Virus genome (UHGV): UHGV-0168719
Strand: one strand, 5' to 3'
Length of the DNA: 19,923 nucleotides
Origin: a virus
Shown: positions 1 through 6,721 of the stretch, piece after piece
How positions within the stretch are numbered: the first letter of the stretch is position 1
Layout: each line of letters starts with the position of its first letter
Notes under the pieces: model-generated
Database searches by the model: none
What the model was told of the DNA's origin: nothing
What the model saw: the letters and a program-made list of their open reading frames with translations, nothing else
Made by a program: the position numbers and the translations under genes

Positions 1-104
1 AAAAAAATATTATATATAGGGAGATCAAATACAACGGTTTACTTGTTATGATGCAAACATTGGTTAGTTAGTGAGATACATCGCCATCAATTGGGTAACT
101 TTAC

Positions 105-320
105 CCGTGGAAAGTTAACGCTTTCTAACATTTACCCCGCGCAACGCCCCTGCCAGCGACAAGAGTCACAGGATCAGGCGGTATGGCGTATGGGTATTCG
201 AACCCTTTGGGCGACCAAGGGTTCGTGGAGCAGGGGGCTAGTGCTGTTCAATCTCATCCTTATGAGGGCGAACCATAGTGTTGGAGCAGACATATCGTTT
301 GCACACTATGGGCATAAGGA
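105..320 (+). ncRNA. Candidate structured non-coding leader, possibly a retron msr/msd-like ncRNA; boundaries approximate
   Basis: GC-rich island inside AT-rich DNA directly upstream of the HTH-RT operon. Hairpins seen: gaaag-ttaacg-ctttc (110-125); cgaaccctt / aagggttcg 9-bp stem (199-207 with 217-225) enclosing tgg-GCGA-cca (GNRA loop); ctcat-cctt-atgag (252-265); ccatagtgt / acactatgg 9-bp stem (273-281 with 302-310). Direct repeats tggagcag (226-233 and 283-290) and gggcga(a)cca. The overlapping 91..483 track ORF starts at TTG with no RBS. No a1/a2 inverted repeats or long msd stem found. Confidence 0.3.
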
Positions 321-327
321 GCAAATC

Positions 328-483
328 ATGAAGAATGATAAATTAACCAACGAACAGCAGGCGCAGAACAAGTCAAACCTGAAAAAGTGGGCTGGTTATG
401 TTTGGAAATTAATCAAATGGGGTATTAGACTGTTTGATTTAGCCACTCGAGCACTGGACTACTTTGAAGGGGGTGATGAGTAA
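328..483 (+). CDS. Small hypothetical protein (51 aa), first ORF of the RT operon
   Basis: ATG at 328 preceded by a consensus AAGGAG (316-321) with 6-nt spacer; product MKNDKLTNEQQAQNKSNLKKWAGYVWKLIKWGIRLFDLATRALDYFEGGDE has a polar N-terminus then a W/K-rich amphipathic segment. No family recognised. Confidence 0.45.
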   Translation: MKNDKLTNEQQAQNKSNLKKWAGYVWKLIKWGIRLFDLATRALDYFEGGDE

Positions 484-519
484 TGCGTCCTCCCTAGTTT
501 CAATAGCATGGAGTTGCCT

Positions 520-840
520 ATGTTACACAGAGCCCTTCGTTTAATAAGGCAATACCATAAAGAGTCATTGGTTGATTTATCAACATCTTTAGGTATTCCA
601 AAAGAAAAAATAGTAGAACTCGAAAGTGGGGTTTGGTCGCCTACAATTGATGTTTTACAGCGTTACGCCTCCCATTTCGATATGCCGGTATCTTCTTTAG
701 TATTTTTTTCAGAATCGTTAGGTACGCAGGGGCGTTTATCTAAGCGTTTCCGTTTAAATTTAGCTGGTAAAGTATTAGATGTTATTGAGTGGGCGAATAA
801 GAAAAATGAAAAGACGAATAAAACTCAAAATTTCCACTAA
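520..840 (+). CDS. XRE-family (Cro/C1-type) helix-turn-helix protein, about 106 aa
   Basis: LRLIRQYHKESLVDLSTSLGIPKEKIVELESGVWSPTIDVLQRYASHFDMPVSSL fits the XRE HTH pattern. GGAG (510-513) sits 6 nt before ATG 520; the track's ATG 508 has no RBS. Stop TAA 838-840. Confidence 0.75.
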   Translation: MLHRALRLIRQYHKESLVDLSTSLGIPKEKIVELESGVWSPTIDVLQRYASHFDMPVSSLVFFSESLGTQGRLSKRFRLNLAGKVLDVIEWANKKNEKTNKTQNFH

Positions 841-1756
841 AAATAAATCTTACGATATAATTGATTCGCCGTTTTATAAAATGAGAAGTAAAAGGAAATT
901 GGCTTCTTTATTGGGGGTTGATGTAGGGGATTTATCAACCTTAAAAAAAGATGAAGGCAATTATTCTATTTTTGAACAGTTATCTAAAAACGGAAAGCCA
1001 CGTAAGATACAAAAACCATTAGAAAAATTAGATGTGGTGCATACTCGTATTGCAAGTCTGCTATCGCGAATTACCTTGCCAGATTATCTACATTCTGGAA
1101 AGAAGGGATGTTCTAATGTTACTAATGCTAAAATCCACCTTAATAATGAAAGGTTGATGACAACCGACATCAGGGCTTTTTTTCCATCAACTACTAGAGA
1201 AATGATATTTTCATTCTTTTTTTCTGTTATGAAGATGTCATCTGATGTTGCGGATGTATTATCGTATATATGTACTTGCTATGGGCGTTTGCCTACAGGT
1301 AGCAGGATTAGTATGCCTCTTGCATATTTTGCAAATTCAAGAATGTTCGGAGAAATACACCAACTTTGTAATAAACTACACGTAAATATGTCTGTTTATG
1401 TTGATGATCTAACTTTTTCAGGACAAAACGTTAATAGACTATTTTGTTCAGTGATTCGCAAAATAATAAATAAGCATGGTCATGTGATGCATGCGGATAA
1501 AACAAAAATTTATAGTAGAGAAAAGCCTAAGTTGGTAACAGGTGTTATTGTTTTGGGCGGTTCTTTAAAAGTCAGGAATAAGCAGCATCTTTTAATGTCT
1601 CAAGAAATTGAATATTGGAAAATGATAAAGGATGCAGCGTGTGCAAGAGAAACTCATACTGCCAAAAAGTTATTTGGACGATTGCATTCTATGGGGGTAA
1701 TTGAACAACGTTATAGATCAAAGGTGCTTACATTAAAAGCAAGTACTGCACTTTAA
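806..1756 (+). CDS. Reverse transcriptase, retron-type (about 316 aa from ATG 806; alternative starts 779 or 881)
   Basis: RT motifs in the translation: F..K.G..R.I..P...L...H.RI (fingers), NAKIHLNNERLMTTDIRAFFPS, YVDD catalytic motif (nt 1397-1408), and the retron-characteristic VTG motif KPKLVTGVIVLGG (nt 1535-1543). Size fits retron RTs rather than the larger Abi-type RTs. Start 806 gives an N-terminal length like Ec86 and overlaps the HTH gene by 35 nt in another frame; 881 gives no overlap. Confidence 0.85.
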   Translation: MKRRIKLKISTKNKSYDIIDSPFYKMRSKRKLASLLGVDVGDLSTLKKDEGNYSIFEQLSKNGKPRKIQKPLEKLDVVHTRIASLLSRITLPDYLHSGKKGCSNVTNAKIHLNNERLMTTDIRAFFPSTTREMIFSFFFSVMKMSSDVADVLSYICTCYGRLPTGSRISMPLAYFANSRMFGEIHQLCNKLHVNMSVYVDDLTFSGQNVNRLFCSVIRKIINKHGHVMHADKTKIYSREKPKLVTGVIVLGGSLKVRNKQHLLMSQEIEYWKMIKDAACARETHTAKKLFGRLHSMGVIEQRYRSKVLTLKASTAL

Positions 1757-1807
1757 TACAGGTTCCTGTAAGTGATTATATTGTTCTTAAGATACTTACT
1801 GATGTTA

Positions 1808-1838
1808 TTTCCCCGTAGCCTTAATTTCTGCGGGGAAG
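1808..1838. terminator. Possible hairpin between the convergent RT and FRG genes
   Basis: tttccccg (1808-1815) pairs with cggggaag (1831-1838) across a 15-nt loop, inside the 108-bp convergent intergenic region; the loop is large and there is no clean U-tract. Confidence 0.25.
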
Positions 1839-1864
1839 TATGGAGATATTTTGGTTATGGAATG

Positions 1865-3229
1865 CTAATTTTTTAATGTGTATTTTTCTGTGATTAGTTT
1901 CATTGTTCTTTCCAATCCTAAATATACAGTGGCATCAGTAATATTGAGCACGGCAAGTTCTTTTAAAATTTTCTTTTTGTCTCTGATGTTTATTTTTTCT
2001 GTCTTAAAGTTGTATGGTGAATTATCTGCCTGATCGTTGGATATCTCAGGAAAAACGGCGTTATTACCGAATAATAAAAAGGCACCGGATTGAGATGATA
2101 TTCTTTCATTATTTATCCTGCTTTTTACAAAAATTATCTTTTCCAAATCATCTGGATTTATTATGCTTTGAAAATATGGTTTTTCATGCTTTATGGATTC
2201 TAAGAGTTTAAGGCAAGCATGAGAGTTGTTAAAATCATTATTTCTTTCTTCGAAAGAAAGCTTGTCTTTCATGTCTTTTGATAGCATGCATAAATTAGAT
2301 ATGCAACTGACAGTGTCGGAATCGAAAAATTTAATGTTCTCTCTGTGTGTTTTAAATATTATTACTTGACCATCGATATCGTTTTTGTCGGAATTTATAC
2401 TACTGCATGCAAAATAAAGTGCAATTAATGGATTTGATGTGATGTCAAGTAAGCGAGTAGGTATGCCATAATGTTGCATTCTTACAAGTTTATCAAGCAT
2501 TGATGTATCATCAATGAATTCTGAGGGTCTTGCGCTCAATGCTTCTTTAACAAGGTTGATTTCATTATGTAGAAATTTATAGTTCCCATTTTCATATTTT
2601 CTGAAAAGAGATGGTGCAAGTTCATAAGATGAATCTGAATGACCCCTGTAAAAAATCTCCTCATCCATATCTGCTGTTATATGGAGAACTTTTTCAATAA
2701 ATTCTTGTAAACTATTTACGGTTAATAATGTGCTATCTTCGTCTGGGAGAGGCGCTGGACTGCTATCCACTTGTGCATTTTGGTTAATACCAAATGTCTT
2801 AAGGATATCATCTATATTTTTGTCTTTTATGGCCCAGTGTGTTCTTTTAAGGCCATAAGTTCCGAGTTCTAAACTGCTTTCAACACTTTTGGCGTCTGAT
2901 ATTTTGATTTCATTGTGTGTATGGGTGATTGCAAATTGGAAGTTGATTTCTTTTCCCTTAATGTGAATATTTGAAATTCTTCCAATTCGTATGTCGACAT
3001 AATAAGGTTTTGCTCCCTCTATTTGATAAGCTTCACTCATGAATATTGTTGGGAGTTTTTCAAGATAAGATAGTACATTGCTGCTTAATGGGGATAGTTT
3101 TTTGCGAATACCATCGGAGGTGTTTTCAAACATTCGTGATAAAAGAAATGAGAATTCTCCATTATTTTGGCTGAATGGTTTCCAGTGGTCGTAGTGGTCG
3201 GGAAAACCACCCATAATTAAATTAATCAT
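1865..3229 (-). CDS. FRG-domain protein (454 aa) with an unassigned ~190-aa N-terminal region
   Basis: Central region carries the FRG-domain signature: EEIFYRGHSDSSYELAPSLFRK ... LVRMQHYGIPTRLLDITSNPLIALYFAC ... ERISSQSGAFLLFG (roughly nt 2070-2655). AT-rich gene convergent with the RT operon; ATG at 3229. Confidence 0.8.
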   Translation of the reverse strand: MINLIMGGFPDHYDHWKPFSQNNGEFSFLLSRMFENTSDGIRKKLSPLSSNVLSYLEKLPTIFMSEAYQIEGAKPYYVDIRIGRISNIHIKGKEINFQFAITHTHNEIKISDAKSVESSLELGTYGLKRTHWAIKDKNIDDILKTFGINQNAQVDSSPAPLPDEDSTLLTVNSLQEFIEKVLHITADMDEEIFYRGHSDSSYELAPSLFRKYENGNYKFLHNEINLVKEALSARPSEFIDDTSMLDKLVRMQHYGIPTRLLDITSNPLIALYFACSSINSDKNDIDGQVIIFKTHRENIKFFDSDTVSCISNLCMLSKDMKDKLSFEERNNDFNNSHACLKLLESIKHEKPYFQSIINPDDLEKIIFVKSRINNERISSQSGAFLLFGNNAVFPEISNDQADNSPYNFKTEKINIRDKKKILKELAVLNITDATVYLGLERTMKLITEKYTLKN

Positions 3230-3512
3230 AATTACCTGTTCATCTGATGTAGGTGTAGGAATGCTTGTTGTTTGTTATGGTAATGTTAACGCTTGTTGGT
3301 GGCAACTACTATTACTACTTGCTGTTAGAGCTAAGACATTTTTTGATTGCTTGTAATGATAGCGAGCCTTTAACTAACTGGGATTTTGAAAAAATAAATG
3401 AATTGTCAATTTCCTGAGATTTTTATTACTGCATTCATTAAGTGCATTTTTTTGCGTGTGTTAGTTGCCATGCTTTTCCATGTTTGTTACCAGTGTTGAT
3501 GCGGTTACTGTG

Positions 3513-3534
3513 TTTTAATGCAATTGCATTAAAA
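3513..3534. repeat. Perfect 22-bp palindrome ttttaatgcaa/ttgcattaaaa, 19 bp left of cos
   Basis: Exact dyad read directly from the sequence; function unknown (packaging-site element, protein-binding site or hairpin). Confidence 0.5.
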
Positions 3535-3553
3535 GCGCCCTATGAAGCGGGCG

Positions 3554-3572
3554 GGCGAGGCGGGGAAAGCAC
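3554..3572. other. cos cohesive-end site (P2-type 19-nt sequence ggcgaggcggggaaagcac)
   Basis: Matches the P2 cohesive-end sequence as I remember it, and the flanking sequence up to the end of Q also resembles the left end of the P2 genome. From memory, not a database check. Confidence 0.6.
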
Positions 3573-3712
3573 TGCGCGCTGGCGGTGGTGCGGATTTTAT
3601 TTTTTCAGCGTCTGAGCGCGTCGTGAAGGCGTTTACTTGGCCTGCTAGGGCGTTGGTGTGTCTGCGGGGTGTTTTGTGCGGTGGTGAGCGTGTGAGGGCG
3701 TGATGACGGGGT

Positions 3713-3736
3713 GTAAAAAAGCCGCCCGCAGGCGGC
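3713..3736 (-). terminator. Rho-independent terminator downstream of Q (end of the P-Q operon)
   Basis: On the minus strand: gccgcc-tgcg-ggcggc hairpin followed by TTTTTT, beginning 6 nt after the Q stop codon (3742-3744). Confidence 0.65.
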
Positions 3737-3741
3737 GATGT

Positions 3742-4776
3742 TCAGCCGTTGTCAGTGTCCAGTGAGTAGTTTTTAAAGCGGATGACCTCCTGGCCGAGCC
3801 AGCCGTTTATTTCCCGAATCCTGTCCTGTAACGGGATTAGCTCATTGCGGACAAAGACCTTTGCCACTTTCTCAATATCACCCAGTGACCCGACGTTCTC
3901 CGGCTTGCCACCCATCAACTGAAAGGGGATGCGGTGTGCGTCCAGCAGGTCAGCGGCGCTGGCTTTTTTGATATTAAAAAAATCGTCCTTCGTCGCCACT
4001 TCACTGAGGGGGATAATTTTAATGCCGTCGGCTTTCCCCTGCGGGGCATAGAGAAACAGGTTTTTAAAGTTGTTGCGGCCTTTCGACTTCACCATGTTTT
4101 CGCGAAGCATTTCGATATCGTTGCGATCCTGCACGGCATCGGTGACGTACATGATGTATCCGGCATGTGCGCCATTTTCGTAATACTTGCGGCGGAACAG
4201 CGTGGCCGACTCATTCAGCCAGGCAGAGTTAAGGGCGCTGAGATATTCCGGCAGGCCGTACAGCTCCTGATTAATATCAGGCTCCAGCAGGTGAAACACG
4301 GAGCCGGGCGCGAAGGCTGTCGGCTCGTTGAAGGACGGCACCCACCAGTAAACATCCTCCTCCACGCCACGACGGGTATATTTTGCCGGTGAGGTTTCCA
4401 GTCTGATGACCTTACCGGTGGTGCTGTAACGCTTTTCCAGAAACGCATTACCGAACACCAGAAAATCCAGCACAAAGCGGCTGAAATCCTGTTGTGAAAG
4501 CCACGGATGCGGGATAAATGTCGAGGCCAGAATATTACGTTTGACGTAAATCGGTGAGCTGTGATGCACGGCAGCACGCAGGCTTTTTGCCAGACCGGTA
4601 AAGCTGACCGGCGGCTCATACCATCTGCCGTTACTGATGCACTCGACGTAATCCAGAATGTCACGGCGGTCGAGTACCGGCACCGGCTCACCAAAGGTGA
4701 ATGCCTCCATTTTCGGGGCGCTGGCGGTCATTTTTTTTGCCGCAGGTTGCGGTGTTTTCCCTTTTTTCTTGCTCAT
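3742..4776 (-). CDS. Q: Portal protein
   Basis: 344-aa translation (MSKKKGKTPQPAAKKMTASAPKMEAFTFGEPVPVLDRRDILDYVECISNGRWYEPP...) matches the P2 Q protein as remembered; the start ATG overlaps the P stop as ATGA. Confidence 0.95.
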   Translation of the reverse strand: MSKKKGKTPQPAAKKMTASAPKMEAFTFGEPVPVLDRRDILDYVECISNGRWYEPPVSFTGLAKSLRAAVHHSSPIYVKRNILASTFIPHPWLSQQDFSRFVLDFLVFGNAFLEKRYSTTGKVIRLETSPAKYTRRGVEEDVYWWVPSFNEPTAFAPGSVFHLLEPDINQELYGLPEYLSALNSAWLNESATLFRRKYYENGAHAGYIMYVTDAVQDRNDIEMLRENMVKSKGRNNFKNLFLYAPQGKADGIKIIPLSEVATKDDFFNIKKASAADLLDAHRIPFQLMGGKPENVGSLGDIEKVAKVFVRNELIPLQDRIREINGWLGQEVIRFKNYSLDTDNG

Positions 4777-6548
4777 CAGTAAAACTCCAGAATGGTGGAT
4801 GTCAGCGGGGTGCTGATACCGGCGGTGAGTGGCTCATTTAACAGGGCGTGCATGGTCGCCCAGGCGAGGTCGGCGTGGCTGGCTTCCTCGCTGCGGCTGG
4901 CCTCATAGGTGGCGCTGCGTCCGCTGCTGGTCATGGTCTTGCGGATAGCCATAAACGAGCTGGTGATGTCGGTGGCGCTGACGTCATATTCCAGACAGCC
5001 ACGGCGGATAACGTCTTTTGCCTTGAGCACCATTGCGGTTTTCATTTCCGGTGTGTAGCGGATATCGCGCGCGGCGGGATAGAACGAGCGCACGAGCTGG
5101 AACACGCCGACACCGAGGCCGGTGGCATCAATACCGATGTATTCGACGTTGTATTTTTCGGTGAGTTTGCGGATGGATTCAGCCTGAGTGGCAAAGTCCA
5201 TGCCTTTCCACTGGTGACGCTCAAGTATTCTGAATTTGCCACCGGCCACCACCGGCGGTGCCAGCACCACGCATCCGGCACTGTCGCCACGGTGTGACGG
5301 GTCGTAACCAATCCAGACCGGGCGTGAGCCGAACGGATTGGCGGCAAACGGCGCATAGTCTTCCCATTCTTCCAGCGTGTCGACCATGCAGCGTTGCAAC
5401 TCCTCGAACGGGAACACCGACGCCTTGTCGTCAACAAATTCACACATGAACAGGTTTTTAAAATCGTCGGCGCTGTTTTCGCGTTTGAGTTGCTCAATGT
5501 CGAACAGCGTGCAGCCGCCTTTCAGGGCGTCCTCAATGGTGACAATCTGCCGCCACTGGCCGTCCGCACAGAGAAGCCCGCTGGCAAGGGCGTTATGACT
5601 GACGTCGATTTCCACACGTTCGGCGGCGCTGGCACGTCCCCGGTTGAACAGTTCACCTGACCAGAACGGGTAGGCGTCGTGCGCCAGCGTGGACGGGGTG
5701 GAGAAATAGGTCGAGCGCAGGTGACTCTGTGAGGCCATACCTGATGCCACCTTACGCAGTACCTGAAAATTCGGGATCCAGAAAATCTCGTCGACGTACA
5801 GGTCGCCGTTATGGCTCTGCGCGGTGTTGGAGTTGGTGCCGAGAAAAATCAGTTTTGAGCCGTTATTGCCCAGGACAATCGGGTCACCGGTCAGGTCAAC
5901 GTCAACCAGCCGGGCAAAGGCGATGATGTATTCGCGGAACACATACGCCTGCGTTTTACTGGCCGACAGAAAAATCTGGTTATGACCGGTTTTCAGGGCG
6001 CGCAGCAGCGCCTCGCGGGAAAAATAAAACGTTGCGCCAATCTGGCGGGATTTCAGGATATCGCGGATGCGGTGCTCAAGCCCGGCGCGATACCAGTGCA
6101 ACTGATAGTCGAAAGACTGCTCAAAGAAAATCTGCTCCAGCTTTTCGATGGCCTCGTCACTGAAAAAATTCTTTTTCGGTTTGCGACGCCCGCCTTTGTT
6201 GCGGTTAGCGACGTTCGGATTAAGGTCTGCCTCGTTGCCGGTCTGACTGTAGCGGTTTACCCGTGCCAGTCGTTCAATCTGGCGTCCGAGCAGGTCAATT
6301 TCCTTGAAGTCACCACCGGTTTTCTGCGGTTTGATAATGAGCTGGGTCAGTCGCGCTTCCAGACTCATTTCGACACGGCTGATGGGGGCAACGCTGTCCC
6401 AGCCGTCGCGCTGTTTCCAGCTCTGCACCGTCGGGCGTTTCATCTGCAACATGGCGGCAATCTGCGGCACGGAAAACCCCTGCCAGTACAGCAGCGCCGC
6501 CTGACGACGCGGGTCGTGTAAAAGAGTGGTGTCTGTGGTGATGGTCAT
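4776..6548 (-). CDS. P: Terminase large (ATPase) subunit, 590 aa
   Basis: Translation from MTITTDTTLLHDPRRQAALLYWQGFSVPQIAAMLQ matches P2 P; start set at the ATG at 6546-6548 rather than the longer track ORF start at 6578. Confidence 0.93.
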   Translation of the reverse strand: MTITTDTTLLHDPRRQAALLYWQGFSVPQIAAMLQMKRPTVQSWKQRDGWDSVAPISRVEMSLEARLTQLIIKPQKTGGDFKEIDLLGRQIERLARVNRYSQTGNEADLNPNVANRNKGGRRKPKKNFFSDEAIEKLEQIFFEQSFDYQLHWYRAGLEHRIRDILKSRQIGATFYFSREALLRALKTGHNQIFLSASKTQAYVFREYIIAFARLVDVDLTGDPIVLGNNGSKLIFLGTNSNTAQSHNGDLYVDEIFWIPNFQVLRKVASGMASQSHLRSTYFSTPSTLAHDAYPFWSGELFNRGRASAAERVEIDVSHNALASGLLCADGQWRQIVTIEDALKGGCTLFDIEQLKRENSADDFKNLFMCEFVDDKASVFPFEELQRCMVDTLEEWEDYAPFAANPFGSRPVWIGYDPSHRGDSAGCVVLAPPVVAGGKFRILERHQWKGMDFATQAESIRKLTEKYNVEYIGIDATGLGVGVFQLVRSFYPAARDIRYTPEMKTAMVLKAKDVIRRGCLEYDVSATDITSSFMAIRKTMTSSGRSATYEASRSEEASHADLAWATMHALLNEPLTAGISTPLTSTILEFY

Positions 6549-6721
6549 GAATACCTCGCCGTGATGAATACACGGCAAGGCTACTGAGTCGCGCCCTGCG
6601 ATTCGCTAAGGTGCTGTTGTGTCAGTGATAAGCCATCCGGGACTGATGGCGGAGGATGCGCATCGTCGGGAAACTGATGCCGACATGTGACTCCTCTAAT
6701 CACTATTCAGGACTCCTGACA
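6549..6721. promoter_or_regulatory. Divergent late-promoter region between P and O
   Basis: Positional: 173-bp intergenic region between divergent late operons, as in P2. No perfect TGT-N12-ACA dyad was found here, so precise elements are not assigned. Confidence 0.4.

What the first reader, a model, noticed from the sequence alone, without database searches (positions are those of the whole stretch)
105..320. GC-rich, multi-hairpin leader upstream of the RT operon that does not look like a canonical msr-msd
This stretch is a GC-rich island in AT-rich DNA with at least four hairpins (two with perfect 9-bp stems, one closing a GCGA tetraloop) and short direct repeats (tggagcag twice; gggcga(a)cca twice). 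It sits where a retron ncRNA should be, yet I found no flanking a1/a2 inverted repeats of 10 nt or more and no long msd-type stem. It could be a divergent retron ncRNA or a different regulatory RNA.
Basis: seen in the sequence. Interest (0 to 1): 0.6.

Follow-up and report, generated by a model that had tools for sequence, protein, structure and literature searches.

The report
Type VI retron hybrid RNA leader
The GC-rich hairpin cluster is the non-coding front part of the "hybrid RNA" of a Type VI retron carried by a P2-like E. coli prophage: an RNA that serves as reverse-transcription template and also keeps a small toxin gene untranslated, a kind of anti-phage system first described in 2025-2026 preprints.

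Summary
Window 105-320 is a GC island (0.52-0.58 against 0.24-0.37 in the flanks). It folds better than all shuffles (z -3.8) and has two perfect 9-bp hairpins (0.015 expected).

It is not an orphan leader. PADLOC calls the downstream genes HTH_VI and RT_VI, and a conserved 51-aa ORF (328-483) lies between the leader and them. That is the SP-HTH-RT layout of a Type VI retron, here in the gpA-portal cargo slot of a P2-like prophage.

Across 24 non-redundant homologues the RNA is structure-conserved: 93% of cells paired, 35 pairs with changes on both sides, 0/500 shuffles. One homologue matches the published descriptors of Retron-Vpa2.

The upstream ORF from TTG 91 is not coding. In-frame stops lie 9-93 nt upstream of the ATG in 13 of 24 homologues.

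The element is larger than reported, about 59-505. It has two small 5' hairpins, a variable 64-nt msd-type stem-loop (133-196), a hairpin carrying GGGCGAC, and a helix that hides the SP ribosome-binding site next to a second GGGCGAA. Long-range helices reach into and beyond the SP coding sequence.

This matches the published Vpa2 hybrid-RNA architecture. Verdict: an uncharacterised member of a recently described kind.

The parts
44..52 (+). Putative extended -10 promoter TGTTATGAT, which would put the transcript start at about 59. No -35 element was found.
   Evidence: T47, A48 and T52 are invariant or nearly so in alignment A3, and conservation among distant homologues begins here. The consensus scan found no -35/-10 pair. 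This part is inferred.
59..505 (+). Predicted extent of the hybrid RNA (hyRNA): non-coding part, SP coding sequence and conserved 3' tail.
   Evidence: Conservation and covariation span this interval. The fold of 59-512 has z=-5.27. The Vpa2 hyRNA is about 470 nt. Transcript ends were not measured.
60..69 (+). Helix a, at the 5' terminus of the RNA. It pairs with a' (341-350, SP codons 5-8).
   Evidence: Inverted repeat I3. Each lineage has its own complementary pair. Cognate duplexes average -9.4 against -4.6 kcal/mol for non-cognate ones, 0/20000 permutations.
73..77 (+). Helix b (GAGAU). It pairs with b' (251-255, AUCUC).
   Evidence: 100% paired in 24 sequences. A-U changes to G-C in 8 sequences (helix 1).
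92..107 (+). Hairpin P1.
   Evidence: 98.5% paired, 4 of 6 pairs with changes on both sides (helix 2). An invariant U-G pair marks the + strand.
109..126 (+). Hairpin P2.
   Evidence: 98.2% paired, 3 pairs with changes on both sides, invariant G-U pair (helix 3).
133..196 (+). Variable stem-loop, the candidate msd (reverse-transcription template). Its base, ACCC...GGGU, is conserved.
   Evidence: The sequence cannot be aligned and its length varies (57-117 nt), yet it is a single hairpin in all 24 homologues. It corresponds to the 'long stem loop' covered by the 63-nt Vpa2 msDNA.
199..225 (+). Hairpin P4, with direct repeat 1 (GGGCGAC, 209-215) in its loop. Predicted to template the 5' stem-loop of the msDNA.
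   Evidence: Perfect 9-bp stem. Compensatory changes in L006, L004 and the Vibrio sequences. The loop motif is conserved. Vpa2 has a 23-nt 5' extension carrying the 7-nt repeat.
232..237 (+). Helix c (AGGGGG). It pairs with c' (490-495), just after the SP stop codon; this is the a2-like strand.
   Evidence: G236/U491 covaries (AU 12, GC 6, GU 6) and the core is 100% paired. RNAalifold predicts it independently.
242..249 (+). Helix d (UGCUGUUC). It pairs with d' (352-359, SP codons 9-11).
   Evidence: 100% paired in 24 sequences and 3 pairs with changes on both sides, including compensated synonymous changes.
251..255 (+). Helix b' (AUCUC), the partner of 73-77.
   Evidence: helix 1.
257..264 (+). 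5' strand of the helix that sequesters the ribosome-binding site (UCCUUAUG). It pairs with 313-320.
   Evidence: Inverted repeat I7. Invariant in the enteric sequences and covaries in Vibrio (UCCUUAUA/UAUAAGGA). 88% and 67% paired despite alignment noise (helices 7-8).
266..272 (+). Direct repeat 2 (GGGCGAA), in the riboregulator loop.
   Evidence: Conserved in all homologues, and it changes in concert with repeat 1 in L129, L123/L124 and L109. Corresponds to the 7-nt repeats of Zhang et al..
273..311 (+). Hairpin P6 (273-281/303-311, with inner helix 286-291/297-302).
   Evidence: The most strongly covarying helices: 7 of 9 and 6 of 6 pairs with changes on both sides (helices 9-10).
313..321 (+). 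3' strand of the sequestering helix (CAUAAGGA, 313-320). It overlaps the SP ribosome-binding site AAGGAG (316-321).
328..483 (+). SP, a 51-aa small protein and the predicted toxic effector. Its codons 5-11 are part of helices a' and d'.
   Evidence: An ORF of 47-55 aa is conserved in all 24 homologues. phrog_15287 3e-39. The homologue in L129 matches the published Vpa2 SP descriptors: 55 aa, K15, I39, F43, F45.
487..503 (+). Conserved non-coding 3' tail: e' (487-489, pairs with 360-362), c' (490-495), then AGUUUCAA. G497 is a candidate priming G.
   Evidence: C492-C493 and G497-C501 are invariant in 24 sequences, including Shewanella; C494 and U495 nearly so. The role of G497 is inference only.
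520..840 (+). HTH protein (Cro/C1 type).
   Evidence: PADLOC HTH_VI 7.2e-30. The start at ATG 520 follows RefSeq homologues. The N-terminus MLHRALR matches the Vpa2-like MIHRALR, with R7.
806..1756 (+). Retron reverse transcriptase (316 aa). It overlaps the HTH gene by 35 nt.
   Evidence: PADLOC RT_VI 1.1e-105. Pfam RVT_1. 54-57% identical to Vibrio parahaemolyticus RTs.

Best explanation
Window 105-320 is the core of the non-coding 5' part of a Type VI retron hybrid RNA (hyRNA). The retron is cargo in a P2-like prophage of E. coli.

One transcript, about 59 to 505, contains in order:
1. Two small hairpins (P1, P2).
2. A variable msd-type stem-loop (133-196) plus a conserved hairpin (199-225) whose loop carries GGGCGAC. 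Together these are the template the RT copies into single-stranded DNA.
3. A hub (232-255) whose three short strands pair with the 5' end, with SP codons 9-11 and with the tail after the SP stop codon.
4. A riboregulator (257-320) that base-pairs the SP ribosome-binding site and exposes a second GGGCGAA in a loop.
5. The SP toxin coding sequence.

[quoted passage not shown] Phage recombination or anti-RecBCD proteins let the msDNA accumulate. Its 5' end is the complement of repeat 1, so it can anneal to repeat 2, open the riboregulator and allow SP translation. SP then arrests the infected cell.

Shown here: the gene content, the conserved and covarying RNA architecture, homology to a locus matching the published descriptors of Retron-Vpa2, and the non-coding nature of the leader.

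Inferred from Vpa2: transcript ends, msDNA production, triggers and toxicity.
For: - Gene content: PADLOC RT_VI 1.1e-105 and HTH_VI 7.2e-30. A conserved 47-55 aa SP ORF lies directly upstream in all 24 homologues.
- Link to Vpa2: locus L129 fits the published Retron-Vpa2 descriptors. Its SP is 55 aa with K15, I39, F43 and F45, and its HTH has R7. Its upstream RNA matches a profile built without it (nhmmer 5.8e-20).
- Structure test on A3: 64 pairs, 93.3% paired, 35 pairs with changes on both sides, 0/500 shuffles reach this. Sliding the partners gives 38-50% paired.
- RNAalifold independently recovers P1, P2, P4, P6 and a junction of helices c/c', d/d' and e/e'. This is the 'three arms from a central node' of Zhang et al..
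- The variable segment is a single hairpin in every homologue.
- The ribosome-binding site lies in helix 257-264/313-320.
- The two GGGCGA repeats sit in the msd-hairpin loop and the riboregulator loop, as described for the 7-nt repeats of Type VI retrons. They change in concert in three lineages.
- Covariance model R1 finds the element on the + strand roughly 460-680 nt upstream of the RT match in 15 loci that were not used to build it.
- Invariant G-U pairs place the structure on the + strand.
- The cargo position, between gpA and the portal gene of P2-like prophages, is a known defence hotspot.
Against: - No expression, msDNA or toxicity data exist for this locus. Everything mechanistic is transferred from Vpa2, whose RT is only about 54% identical.
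- Retron-Sen3, another Type VI retron, works differently: constitutive ssDNA and post-translational control. Mechanism therefore varies within the type.
- Helices a/a' and b/b' cross helices c/c', d/d' and e/e', so a single nested structure does not explain all the covariation.
- The consensus scan found no promoter.
- I identified L129 as Vpa2 from published descriptors (length and residue positions), not from a sequence or accession match. WP_069548583.1 was not seen.
Confidence: 0.8

Rival explanations
1. It is the same Type VI RNA but works like Retron-Sen3. ssDNA is made constitutively, SP is translated constitutively and neutralised by HTH protein, and RecBCD inhibition triggers the system after translation. 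The RNA would then be mainly a template and scaffold, not a translational switch.
For: Sen3 shares the SP-HTH-RT layout and has a structured ncRNA running into the SP coding sequence. HTH is conserved here. Mechanism is known to differ between Type VI lineages.
Against: The window's SP is 51 aa, like the 55-aa Vpa2 SP and unlike the 75-79 aa cl2075/Sen3 SPs. The RNA aligns with the Vpa2-like locus. The sequestering helix and both repeats, the elements of the Vpa2 translational model, are conserved and co-evolve. The E. coli Type VI retron tested by Zhang et al. (Eco12) gave no detectable msDNA, like Vpa2.
Confidence: 0.15
2. It is a canonical msr-msd retron ncRNA confined to the intergenic region. 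It would be closed by a1/a2 repeats, with a branching G just after a1, and it would make abundant msDNA that acts as an antitoxin.
For: It sits upstream of a retron RT. It has small msr-like hairpins followed by an msd-like stem-loop. GAGAU 73-77 pairs with AUCUC 251-255 with covariation and could be read as a short a1/a2.
Against: No Rfam family matches at E<=1. No inverted repeat of 10 nt or more closes the intergenic element. The covarying closing helices pair with segments inside and after the SP coding sequence. Type VI retrons tested as RT plus ncRNA alone gave no msDNA.
Confidence: 0.04
3. The region is the N-terminal part of a longer protein that starts at TTG 91 (130 aa). The hairpins would then be incidental.
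For: An open frame 91-483 exists in the window. PHROG 5826 is a 97-aa profile whose last 51 positions match the SP, so some phage annotations have called an extended ORF.
Against: In 13 of 24 homologues an in-frame stop lies 9-93 nt upstream of the SP ATG, and the open stretch ranges from 9 to 276 nt. Indels in the leader are not multiples of three. Variation preserves base pairs. A good AAGGAG site precedes ATG 328. Pfam and PADLOC find nothing in the extension.
Confidence: 0.01
4. The conserved GGGCGA repeats and hairpins are DNA operators for the HTH repressor. The region would be a promoter/operator, not a functional RNA.
For: The HTH is a Cro/C1-type DNA-binding fold. The two repeats are conserved in sequence. 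The system probably needs autoregulation.
Against: G-U pairs are invariant and strand-specific. Helices covary while their sequence changes, and the long-range helices extend into the coding sequence. These patterns are expected for RNA, not for operators. The repeats lie about 150-210 nt downstream of the likely promoter. In Vpa2, HTH co-purifies with the hyRNA and RT.
Confidence: 0.03

Closest known systems
Retron-Vpa2 hybrid RNA (Zhang et al., bioRxiv 10.1101/2025.10.22.683967)
   Same: SP-HTH-RT operon. One structured RNA of about 450-470 nt holds the msr-msd-like part plus the SP coding sequence. Three arms meet at a central junction, and the 3' end anneals back onto the first arm. The ribosome-binding site is sequestered. 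Short direct repeats sit in the msd-hairpin loop and the riboregulator loop. The RNAs can be aligned.
   Different: RT about 54% identical. SP is 51 aa against 55 aa. The repeat is GGGCGA(C/A) against GGACGAA. The host is E. coli and the carrier a P2-like prophage. Nothing has been tested experimentally here.
Retron-Eco12 (E. coli Type VI retron in the same preprint)
   Same: An E. coli Type VI retron with an SP related to the Vpa2 SP. It defends against lambda-vir and gives no detectable msDNA.
   Different: Its sequence is not in the text or supplements held, so I could not test identity with this window. E. coli carries at least four diverged variants of this retron.
Retron-Sen3 / cl2075 ncRNA (Garcia-Rodriguez et al., bioRxiv 10.64898/2026.04.27.721009)
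   Same: Type VI. A structured ncRNA within about 280 nt of the SP start, with a variable internal stem-loop, a sequestered ribosome-binding site, and a long-range pairing between the ncRNA and a segment after the SP stop codon.
   Different: Sen3 has a 79-aa SP of another cluster, a roughly 166-nt SL3, constitutive ssDNA of 112/145 nt, and post-translational control.
Canonical retron msr-msd (for example Ec86; general knowledge)
   Same: An RNA next to a retron RT. Small hairpins are followed by a longer, sequence-variable template stem-loop. A short helix lies next to the template end.
   Different: There is no long a1/a2 around an intergenic ncRNA and no Rfam match. The strand that pairs next to the template end lies downstream of the template, after an embedded toxin ORF. 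The msDNA is expected to activate the toxin, not neutralise it.
RT of P2-like coliphages in the variable gpA-cos locus (Odegrip et al. 2006, J Bacteriol 188:1643; title seen in the reference list of PMC9122126)
   Same: A reverse transcriptase gene in the same hypervariable cargo slot of P2-like coliphages.
   Different: The paper is not held, so I could not test whether it is the same RT family. That it blocks phage T5 is from my own memory.

Membership tests
Type VI retron (Mestre et al. 2020) | RT of the Type VI clade | tested here: met
   PADLOC RT_VI 1.1e-105, full-length. The next best profile, RT_III-A, scores 5e-45.
Type VI retron (Mestre et al. 2020) | Cro/C1-type HTH protein (91-110 aa) upstream of, or overlapping, the RT gene | tested here: met
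   PADLOC HTH_VI 7.2e-30. The gene at 520-840 (106 aa) overlaps the RT start at 806 by 35 nt.
Type VI retron (Mestre et al. 2020) | Small accessory protein (SP) upstream of the HTH gene | tested here: met
   51-aa ORF at 328-483 with an AAGGAG site. Conserved at 47-55 aa in 24 homologues. It does not belong to the 75-79 aa clusters.
Type VI hybrid RNA, Vpa2 type (Zhang et al. 2025) | Sequence homology of the upstream RNA to the Vpa2 hyRNA | tested here: met
   L129 carries an SP and HTH that fit the published Vpa2 descriptors. It matches a nucleotide profile built only from close relatives of the window (5.8e-20). I did not verify L129 as Vpa2 by accession.
Type VI hybrid RNA, Vpa2 type (Zhang et al. 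2025) | Conserved structure that joins the non-coding part to the SP coding sequence and to the 3' tail (three arms, central node) | tested here: met
   Helices c/c', d/d' and e/e' form a three-way junction in RNAalifold. 100% paired with covariation.
Type VI hybrid RNA, Vpa2 type (Zhang et al. 2025) | SP ribosome-binding site sequestered in a stem | tested here: met
   257-264 pairs with 313-320, which overlaps AAGGAG 316-321.
Type VI hybrid RNA, Vpa2 type (Zhang et al. 2025) | Conserved short direct repeats, one in an msd loop and one in the riboregulator loop | tested here: met
   GGGCGAC at 209-215 in the P4 loop and GGGCGAA at 266-272. Both are conserved and change in concert.
Type VI hybrid RNA, Vpa2 type (Zhang et al. 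2025) | An abundant single transcript; trigger-dependent msDNA; msDNA-dependent SP translation | not testable with these tools
   Needs RNA-seq, ssDNA gels or sequencing, and reporter assays.
Canonical retron msr-msd ncRNA | a1/a2 inverted repeats (usually 7 nt or more, often over 10) closing an intergenic ncRNA | tested here: not met
   No such pair within 59-327. The only candidate is the 5-bp pair 73-77/251-255. The 10-bp repeat 60-69/341-350 has one arm in the SP coding sequence.
Canonical retron msr-msd ncRNA | Match to a described RNA family | tested here: not met
   No Rfam 15 family matches at E<=1 over window 1-4000.
Canonical retron msr-msd ncRNA | Branching G with a 2'-5' RNA-DNA link | not testable with these tools
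   Candidates are G497 and G83, both invariant. Neither preprint text names a priming G.
cl2075 / Sen3-type Type VI retron | SP of cluster 2075 (75-79 aa) | tested here: not met
   The SP is 51 aa, against 79 aa for Sen3.
Protein-coding sequence (ORF 91-483) | Reading frame kept open in homologues, with codon-like variation | tested here: not met
   In-frame stops 9-93 nt upstream of the ATG in 13 of 24 homologues, and indels that are not multiples of three.

The most novel reading that the evidence does not exclude
The covariation supports two sets of helices that cross each other. One set is 5'-terminus/SP codons 5-8 (60-69/341-350) plus 73-77/251-255. The other is the three-way junction 232-237/490-495, 242-249/352-359 and 360-362/487-489.

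The hyRNA core would then be either a pseudoknot or a two-state switch. In one state the extreme 5' end of the transcript clamps the start of the toxin ORF.

In addition, the invariant tail CCCUAGUUUC lies directly after the strand that pairs next to the template end. This suggests that the priming G (G497) lies downstream of the toxin ORF. Type VI would then be a circularly permuted retron, with the effector gene sitting inside the msd-to-msr loop.

The text of neither preprint mentions a pseudoknot or a priming G. Their figures are not held, so part of this may already be drawn there.
Probability: 0.3. Interest if true: 0.5.

Novelty: new member of a known kind. Interest (0 to 1): 0.3.

Why it matters
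Type VI retrons invert the usual retron logic: the reverse-transcribed DNA switches a toxin on, not off. Only two members have been studied in depth (Vpa2 and Sen3), and they behave differently.

This locus is a common variant. It occurs at 99% identity or more in 60 of 5,426 complete E. coli genomes, and diverged variants occur in 40 more. It rides in the defence hotspot of P2-like prophages and lives in the standard laboratory host.

The comparative map made here gives exact positions for the template, the two repeats, the sequestering helix and five long-range helices. That makes compensatory mutagenesis straightforward. For genome annotation, it shows that the long ORF through this leader should not be called a gene.

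Tried and rejected
- Rfam scan of 1-4000 at E<=1: no hit.
- Sigma-70 consensus scan: no promoter in 1-330. A hit in L001 lies upstream of the window start. I rely instead on a conserved extended -10, which is inference.
- Coding reading of ORF 91-483: rejected.
- TGGAGCAG direct repeat as a functional element: rejected, because the second copy is not conserved.
- GCGA tetraloop as a conserved feature: rejected.
- Verifying that a V. parahaemolyticus RT cluster contains the Vpa2 accession WP_069548583.1: not seen among the listed accessions. The identification rests on published SP and HTH residue descriptors.
- Retrieving the Eco12 sequence from supplements: not present.
- Reading Odegrip et al. 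2006: not held.
- A column-based covariation scan missed helix a/a' because MAFFT misaligns the 5' end. It was recovered with register-free duplex energies.
- One whole-element covariance model was not attempted because of the size limit. Only 195-330 was modelled.

Full report
**Observation.** Window 105-320 is a GC island. Its 100-nt windows give GC 0.52-0.58, against 0.24-0.37 in the AT-rich cargo region that follows. It contains two perfect 9-bp inverted repeats, 199-207/217-225 and 273-281/303-311, and the exact 8-mer TGGAGCAG twice. GGGCGA(A)CCA occurs at 209-217 and 266-275. Dinucleotide shuffles of the region give 0.015 perfect 9-bp hairpins on average, P(>=2)=0.0015. The region folds at -84.7 kcal/mol, z=-3.8, 0/200 shuffles as good.

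**Context.** The window matches Peduovirus P22H1 at 100%. Sixty complete E. coli genomes match at 99% or more, and forty more carry variants at 75-85%. In annotated relatives the locus lies between the P2 replication endonuclease gene (gpA) and the portal gene. This is the variable cargo slot of P2-like phages, described as a defence hotspot.

Downstream of the leader lie three genes:
- a 51-aa ORF (328-483) with an AAGGAG ribosome-binding site;
- an HTH gene (520-840), PADLOC HTH_VI 7.2e-30;
- an RT gene (806-1756), PADLOC RT_VI 1.1e-105.

This is the SP-HTH-RT layout of Type VI retrons.

**Literature.** Type VI retrons were long thought to lack an msr-msd RNA. Zhang et al. (bioRxiv 2025) showed for Retron-Vpa2 that a roughly 470-nt hybrid RNA contains an msr-msd-like part plus the SP toxin coding sequence. 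It folds into three arms around a central node and hides the SP ribosome-binding site. It carries 7-nt direct repeats in an msd loop and in a riboregulator loop. msDNA (63 nt, or 86 nt with a 5' stem-loop) accumulates only on triggering and is needed for SP translation. Garcia-Rodriguez et al. (bioRxiv 2026) described a related ncRNA for Retron-Sen3, whose regulation is different.

**Homologues.** I collected loci from E. coli genomes, phage records, GTDB genomes, IMG/VR and assemblies. A nucleotide profile built from close relatives detects the upstream region in 37 loci, reaching Vibrio, Xenorhabdus and Shewanella. Twenty-four non-redundant sequences form alignment A3. One of them, L129 (Vibrio parahaemolyticus and relatives), encodes a 55-aa SP with K15, I39, F43 and F45, and an HTH with R7. 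These are the residues and length published for Vpa2. I did not confirm the match by accession.

**Coding test.** The ORF from TTG 91 shares the SP frame. In 13 of 24 homologues an in-frame stop lies only 9-93 nt upstream of the SP ATG, and the leader has indels that are not multiples of three. The SP itself is conserved at 47-55 aa. The leader is therefore non-coding. PHROG 5826 shows that some annotations have nevertheless called an extended ORF.

**Structure.** I counted a nine-helix structure on A3 (scored as ten, because alignment gaps split the RBS helix). It gives 93.3% of cells paired and 35 of 64 pairs with changes on both sides. No shuffle in 500 reaches the observed values, and sliding the partners gives 38-50% paired. 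In window coordinates:
- **Local helices:** P1 92-97/102-107; P2 109-115/120-126; P4 199-207/217-225; the ribosome-binding-site helix 257-264/313-320; P6 273-281/303-311 with 286-291/297-302.
- **Template stem-loop:** between P2 and P4 the sequence cannot be aligned and its length varies, but every homologue folds it into one hairpin of 57-117 nt on a conserved base. This is the behaviour expected of an msd stem. In the window it is 133-196.
- **Long-range helices:** 73-77/251-255 (A-U changes to G-C in 8 sequences); 242-249/352-359, inside SP codons 9-11, 100% paired and with compensated synonymous changes; 232-237/490-495, just after the SP stop codon.
- **Independent prediction:** RNAalifold recovers these helices and adds 360-362/487-489, giving a three-way junction.
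- **5' end:** residues 60-69 are complementary to SP codons 5-8 (341-350) in every lineage, with lineage-specific sequences. Cognate duplexes are far more stable than non-cognate ones, 0/20000 permutations.
- **Strand:** invariant G-U pairs show that the structure belongs to the + strand RNA.

**Repeats.** GGGCGAC sits in the P4 loop and GGGCGAA in the riboregulator loop. Both are conserved. They change together in L129 (GGACGAA in both), in L123/L124 (GGCGA in both) and in L109 (GAGGCGA in both). This fits the proposal that the cDNA of repeat 1 anneals to repeat 2. The second TGGAGCAG copy is not conserved and is probably chance.

**Breadth.** A covariance model of 195-330 finds the element in 15 loci that were not used to build it. 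The hits are always on the + strand, roughly 460-680 nt upstream of the RT match, in loci whose RTs are down to about 43% identical.

**Interpretation.** The finding is the core of the non-coding part of a Vpa2-type Type VI hybrid RNA. From a conserved extended -10 (TGTTATGAT, 44-52; inferred) the transcript would start near 59 and end near 505.

I predict the template as about 132-231. In L129 the equivalent segment is about 82-88 nt, which fits the 86-nt Vpa2 msDNA. Strand 232-237 lies next to the template end and pairs with 490-495. The tail after it, AGUUUCAA, contains G497-C501, which is invariant. G497 is therefore a candidate priming G, by inference only.

The mechanism is transferred from Vpa2: repressed reverse transcription and translation, trigger-induced msDNA, and opening of the riboregulator. 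A Sen3-like mode is the main rival.

**Open points.** Helices a and b cross helices c, d and e, so the core is either a pseudoknot or a switch. The priming G is unknown. Identity with Retron-Eco12 could not be tested.

**Verdict.** A real, well-supported structured RNA of a recently described kind. Its boundaries and two of its negative statements need correction. Interest is moderate to low.

Noticed in passing
window 1865-3229 (- strand): A 454-aa FRG-domain protein (Pfam FRG 2.4e-21; PADLOC candidate system PDC-S15 7e-98; phrog_4962 1e-200). It looks like a second, separate candidate defence gene in the same P2 cargo slot. Other prophages with the same retron carry different genes here.
   Followed up: partly
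L004 (E. coli C5), L125, L126 (Dickeya): The same SP-HTH-RT retron with its RNA also occurs outside P2 prophages. In L004 and L125 it lies next to DUF4236 and YkgJ-like genes, and in L126 next to glycosyltransferase and TatD genes. The module therefore moves independently of the phage.
   Followed up: partly
window 91-483: PHROG 5826 is a 97-aa profile whose last 51 positions match the SP. Some phage annotations therefore extend this ORF through the non-coding RNA, which looks like an annotation artefact.
   Followed up: partly
window 220-226 and 268-274: The 3' arm of hairpin P4 (GGUUCGU) can also pair with GCGAACC next to repeat 2, because that region repeats the P4 5' arm CGAACC. This is a possible RNA-level alternative pairing, in addition to the cDNA-repeat model.
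   Followed up: no
window 496-503: The tail after the SP stop codon reads AGUUUCAA. G497-C501 is invariant in all 24 homologues, from E. coli to Shewanella, although it is non-coding. RNAalifold pairs GUUUC with GAGAU 73-77, without two-sided covariation.
   Followed up: partly
window 3500-3750: A GC-rich stretch (0.56-0.62) lies between the FRG gene and the portal gene. It is probably the P2 cos / late-promoter region.
   Followed up: no
window 806-840: The HTH and RT genes overlap by 35 nt. The RT starts at ATG 806 (316 aa, as in RefSeq homologues), not at ATG 779 as in the mechanical ORF list.
   Followed up: yes
window 3742-6578 (- strand) and onward: P2-type late genes follow: a portal-like gene of 344 aa, a terminase-like gene of 600 aa, then capsid, lysis and tail genes on the + strand. 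The window is most of a P2-like prophage.
   Followed up: no
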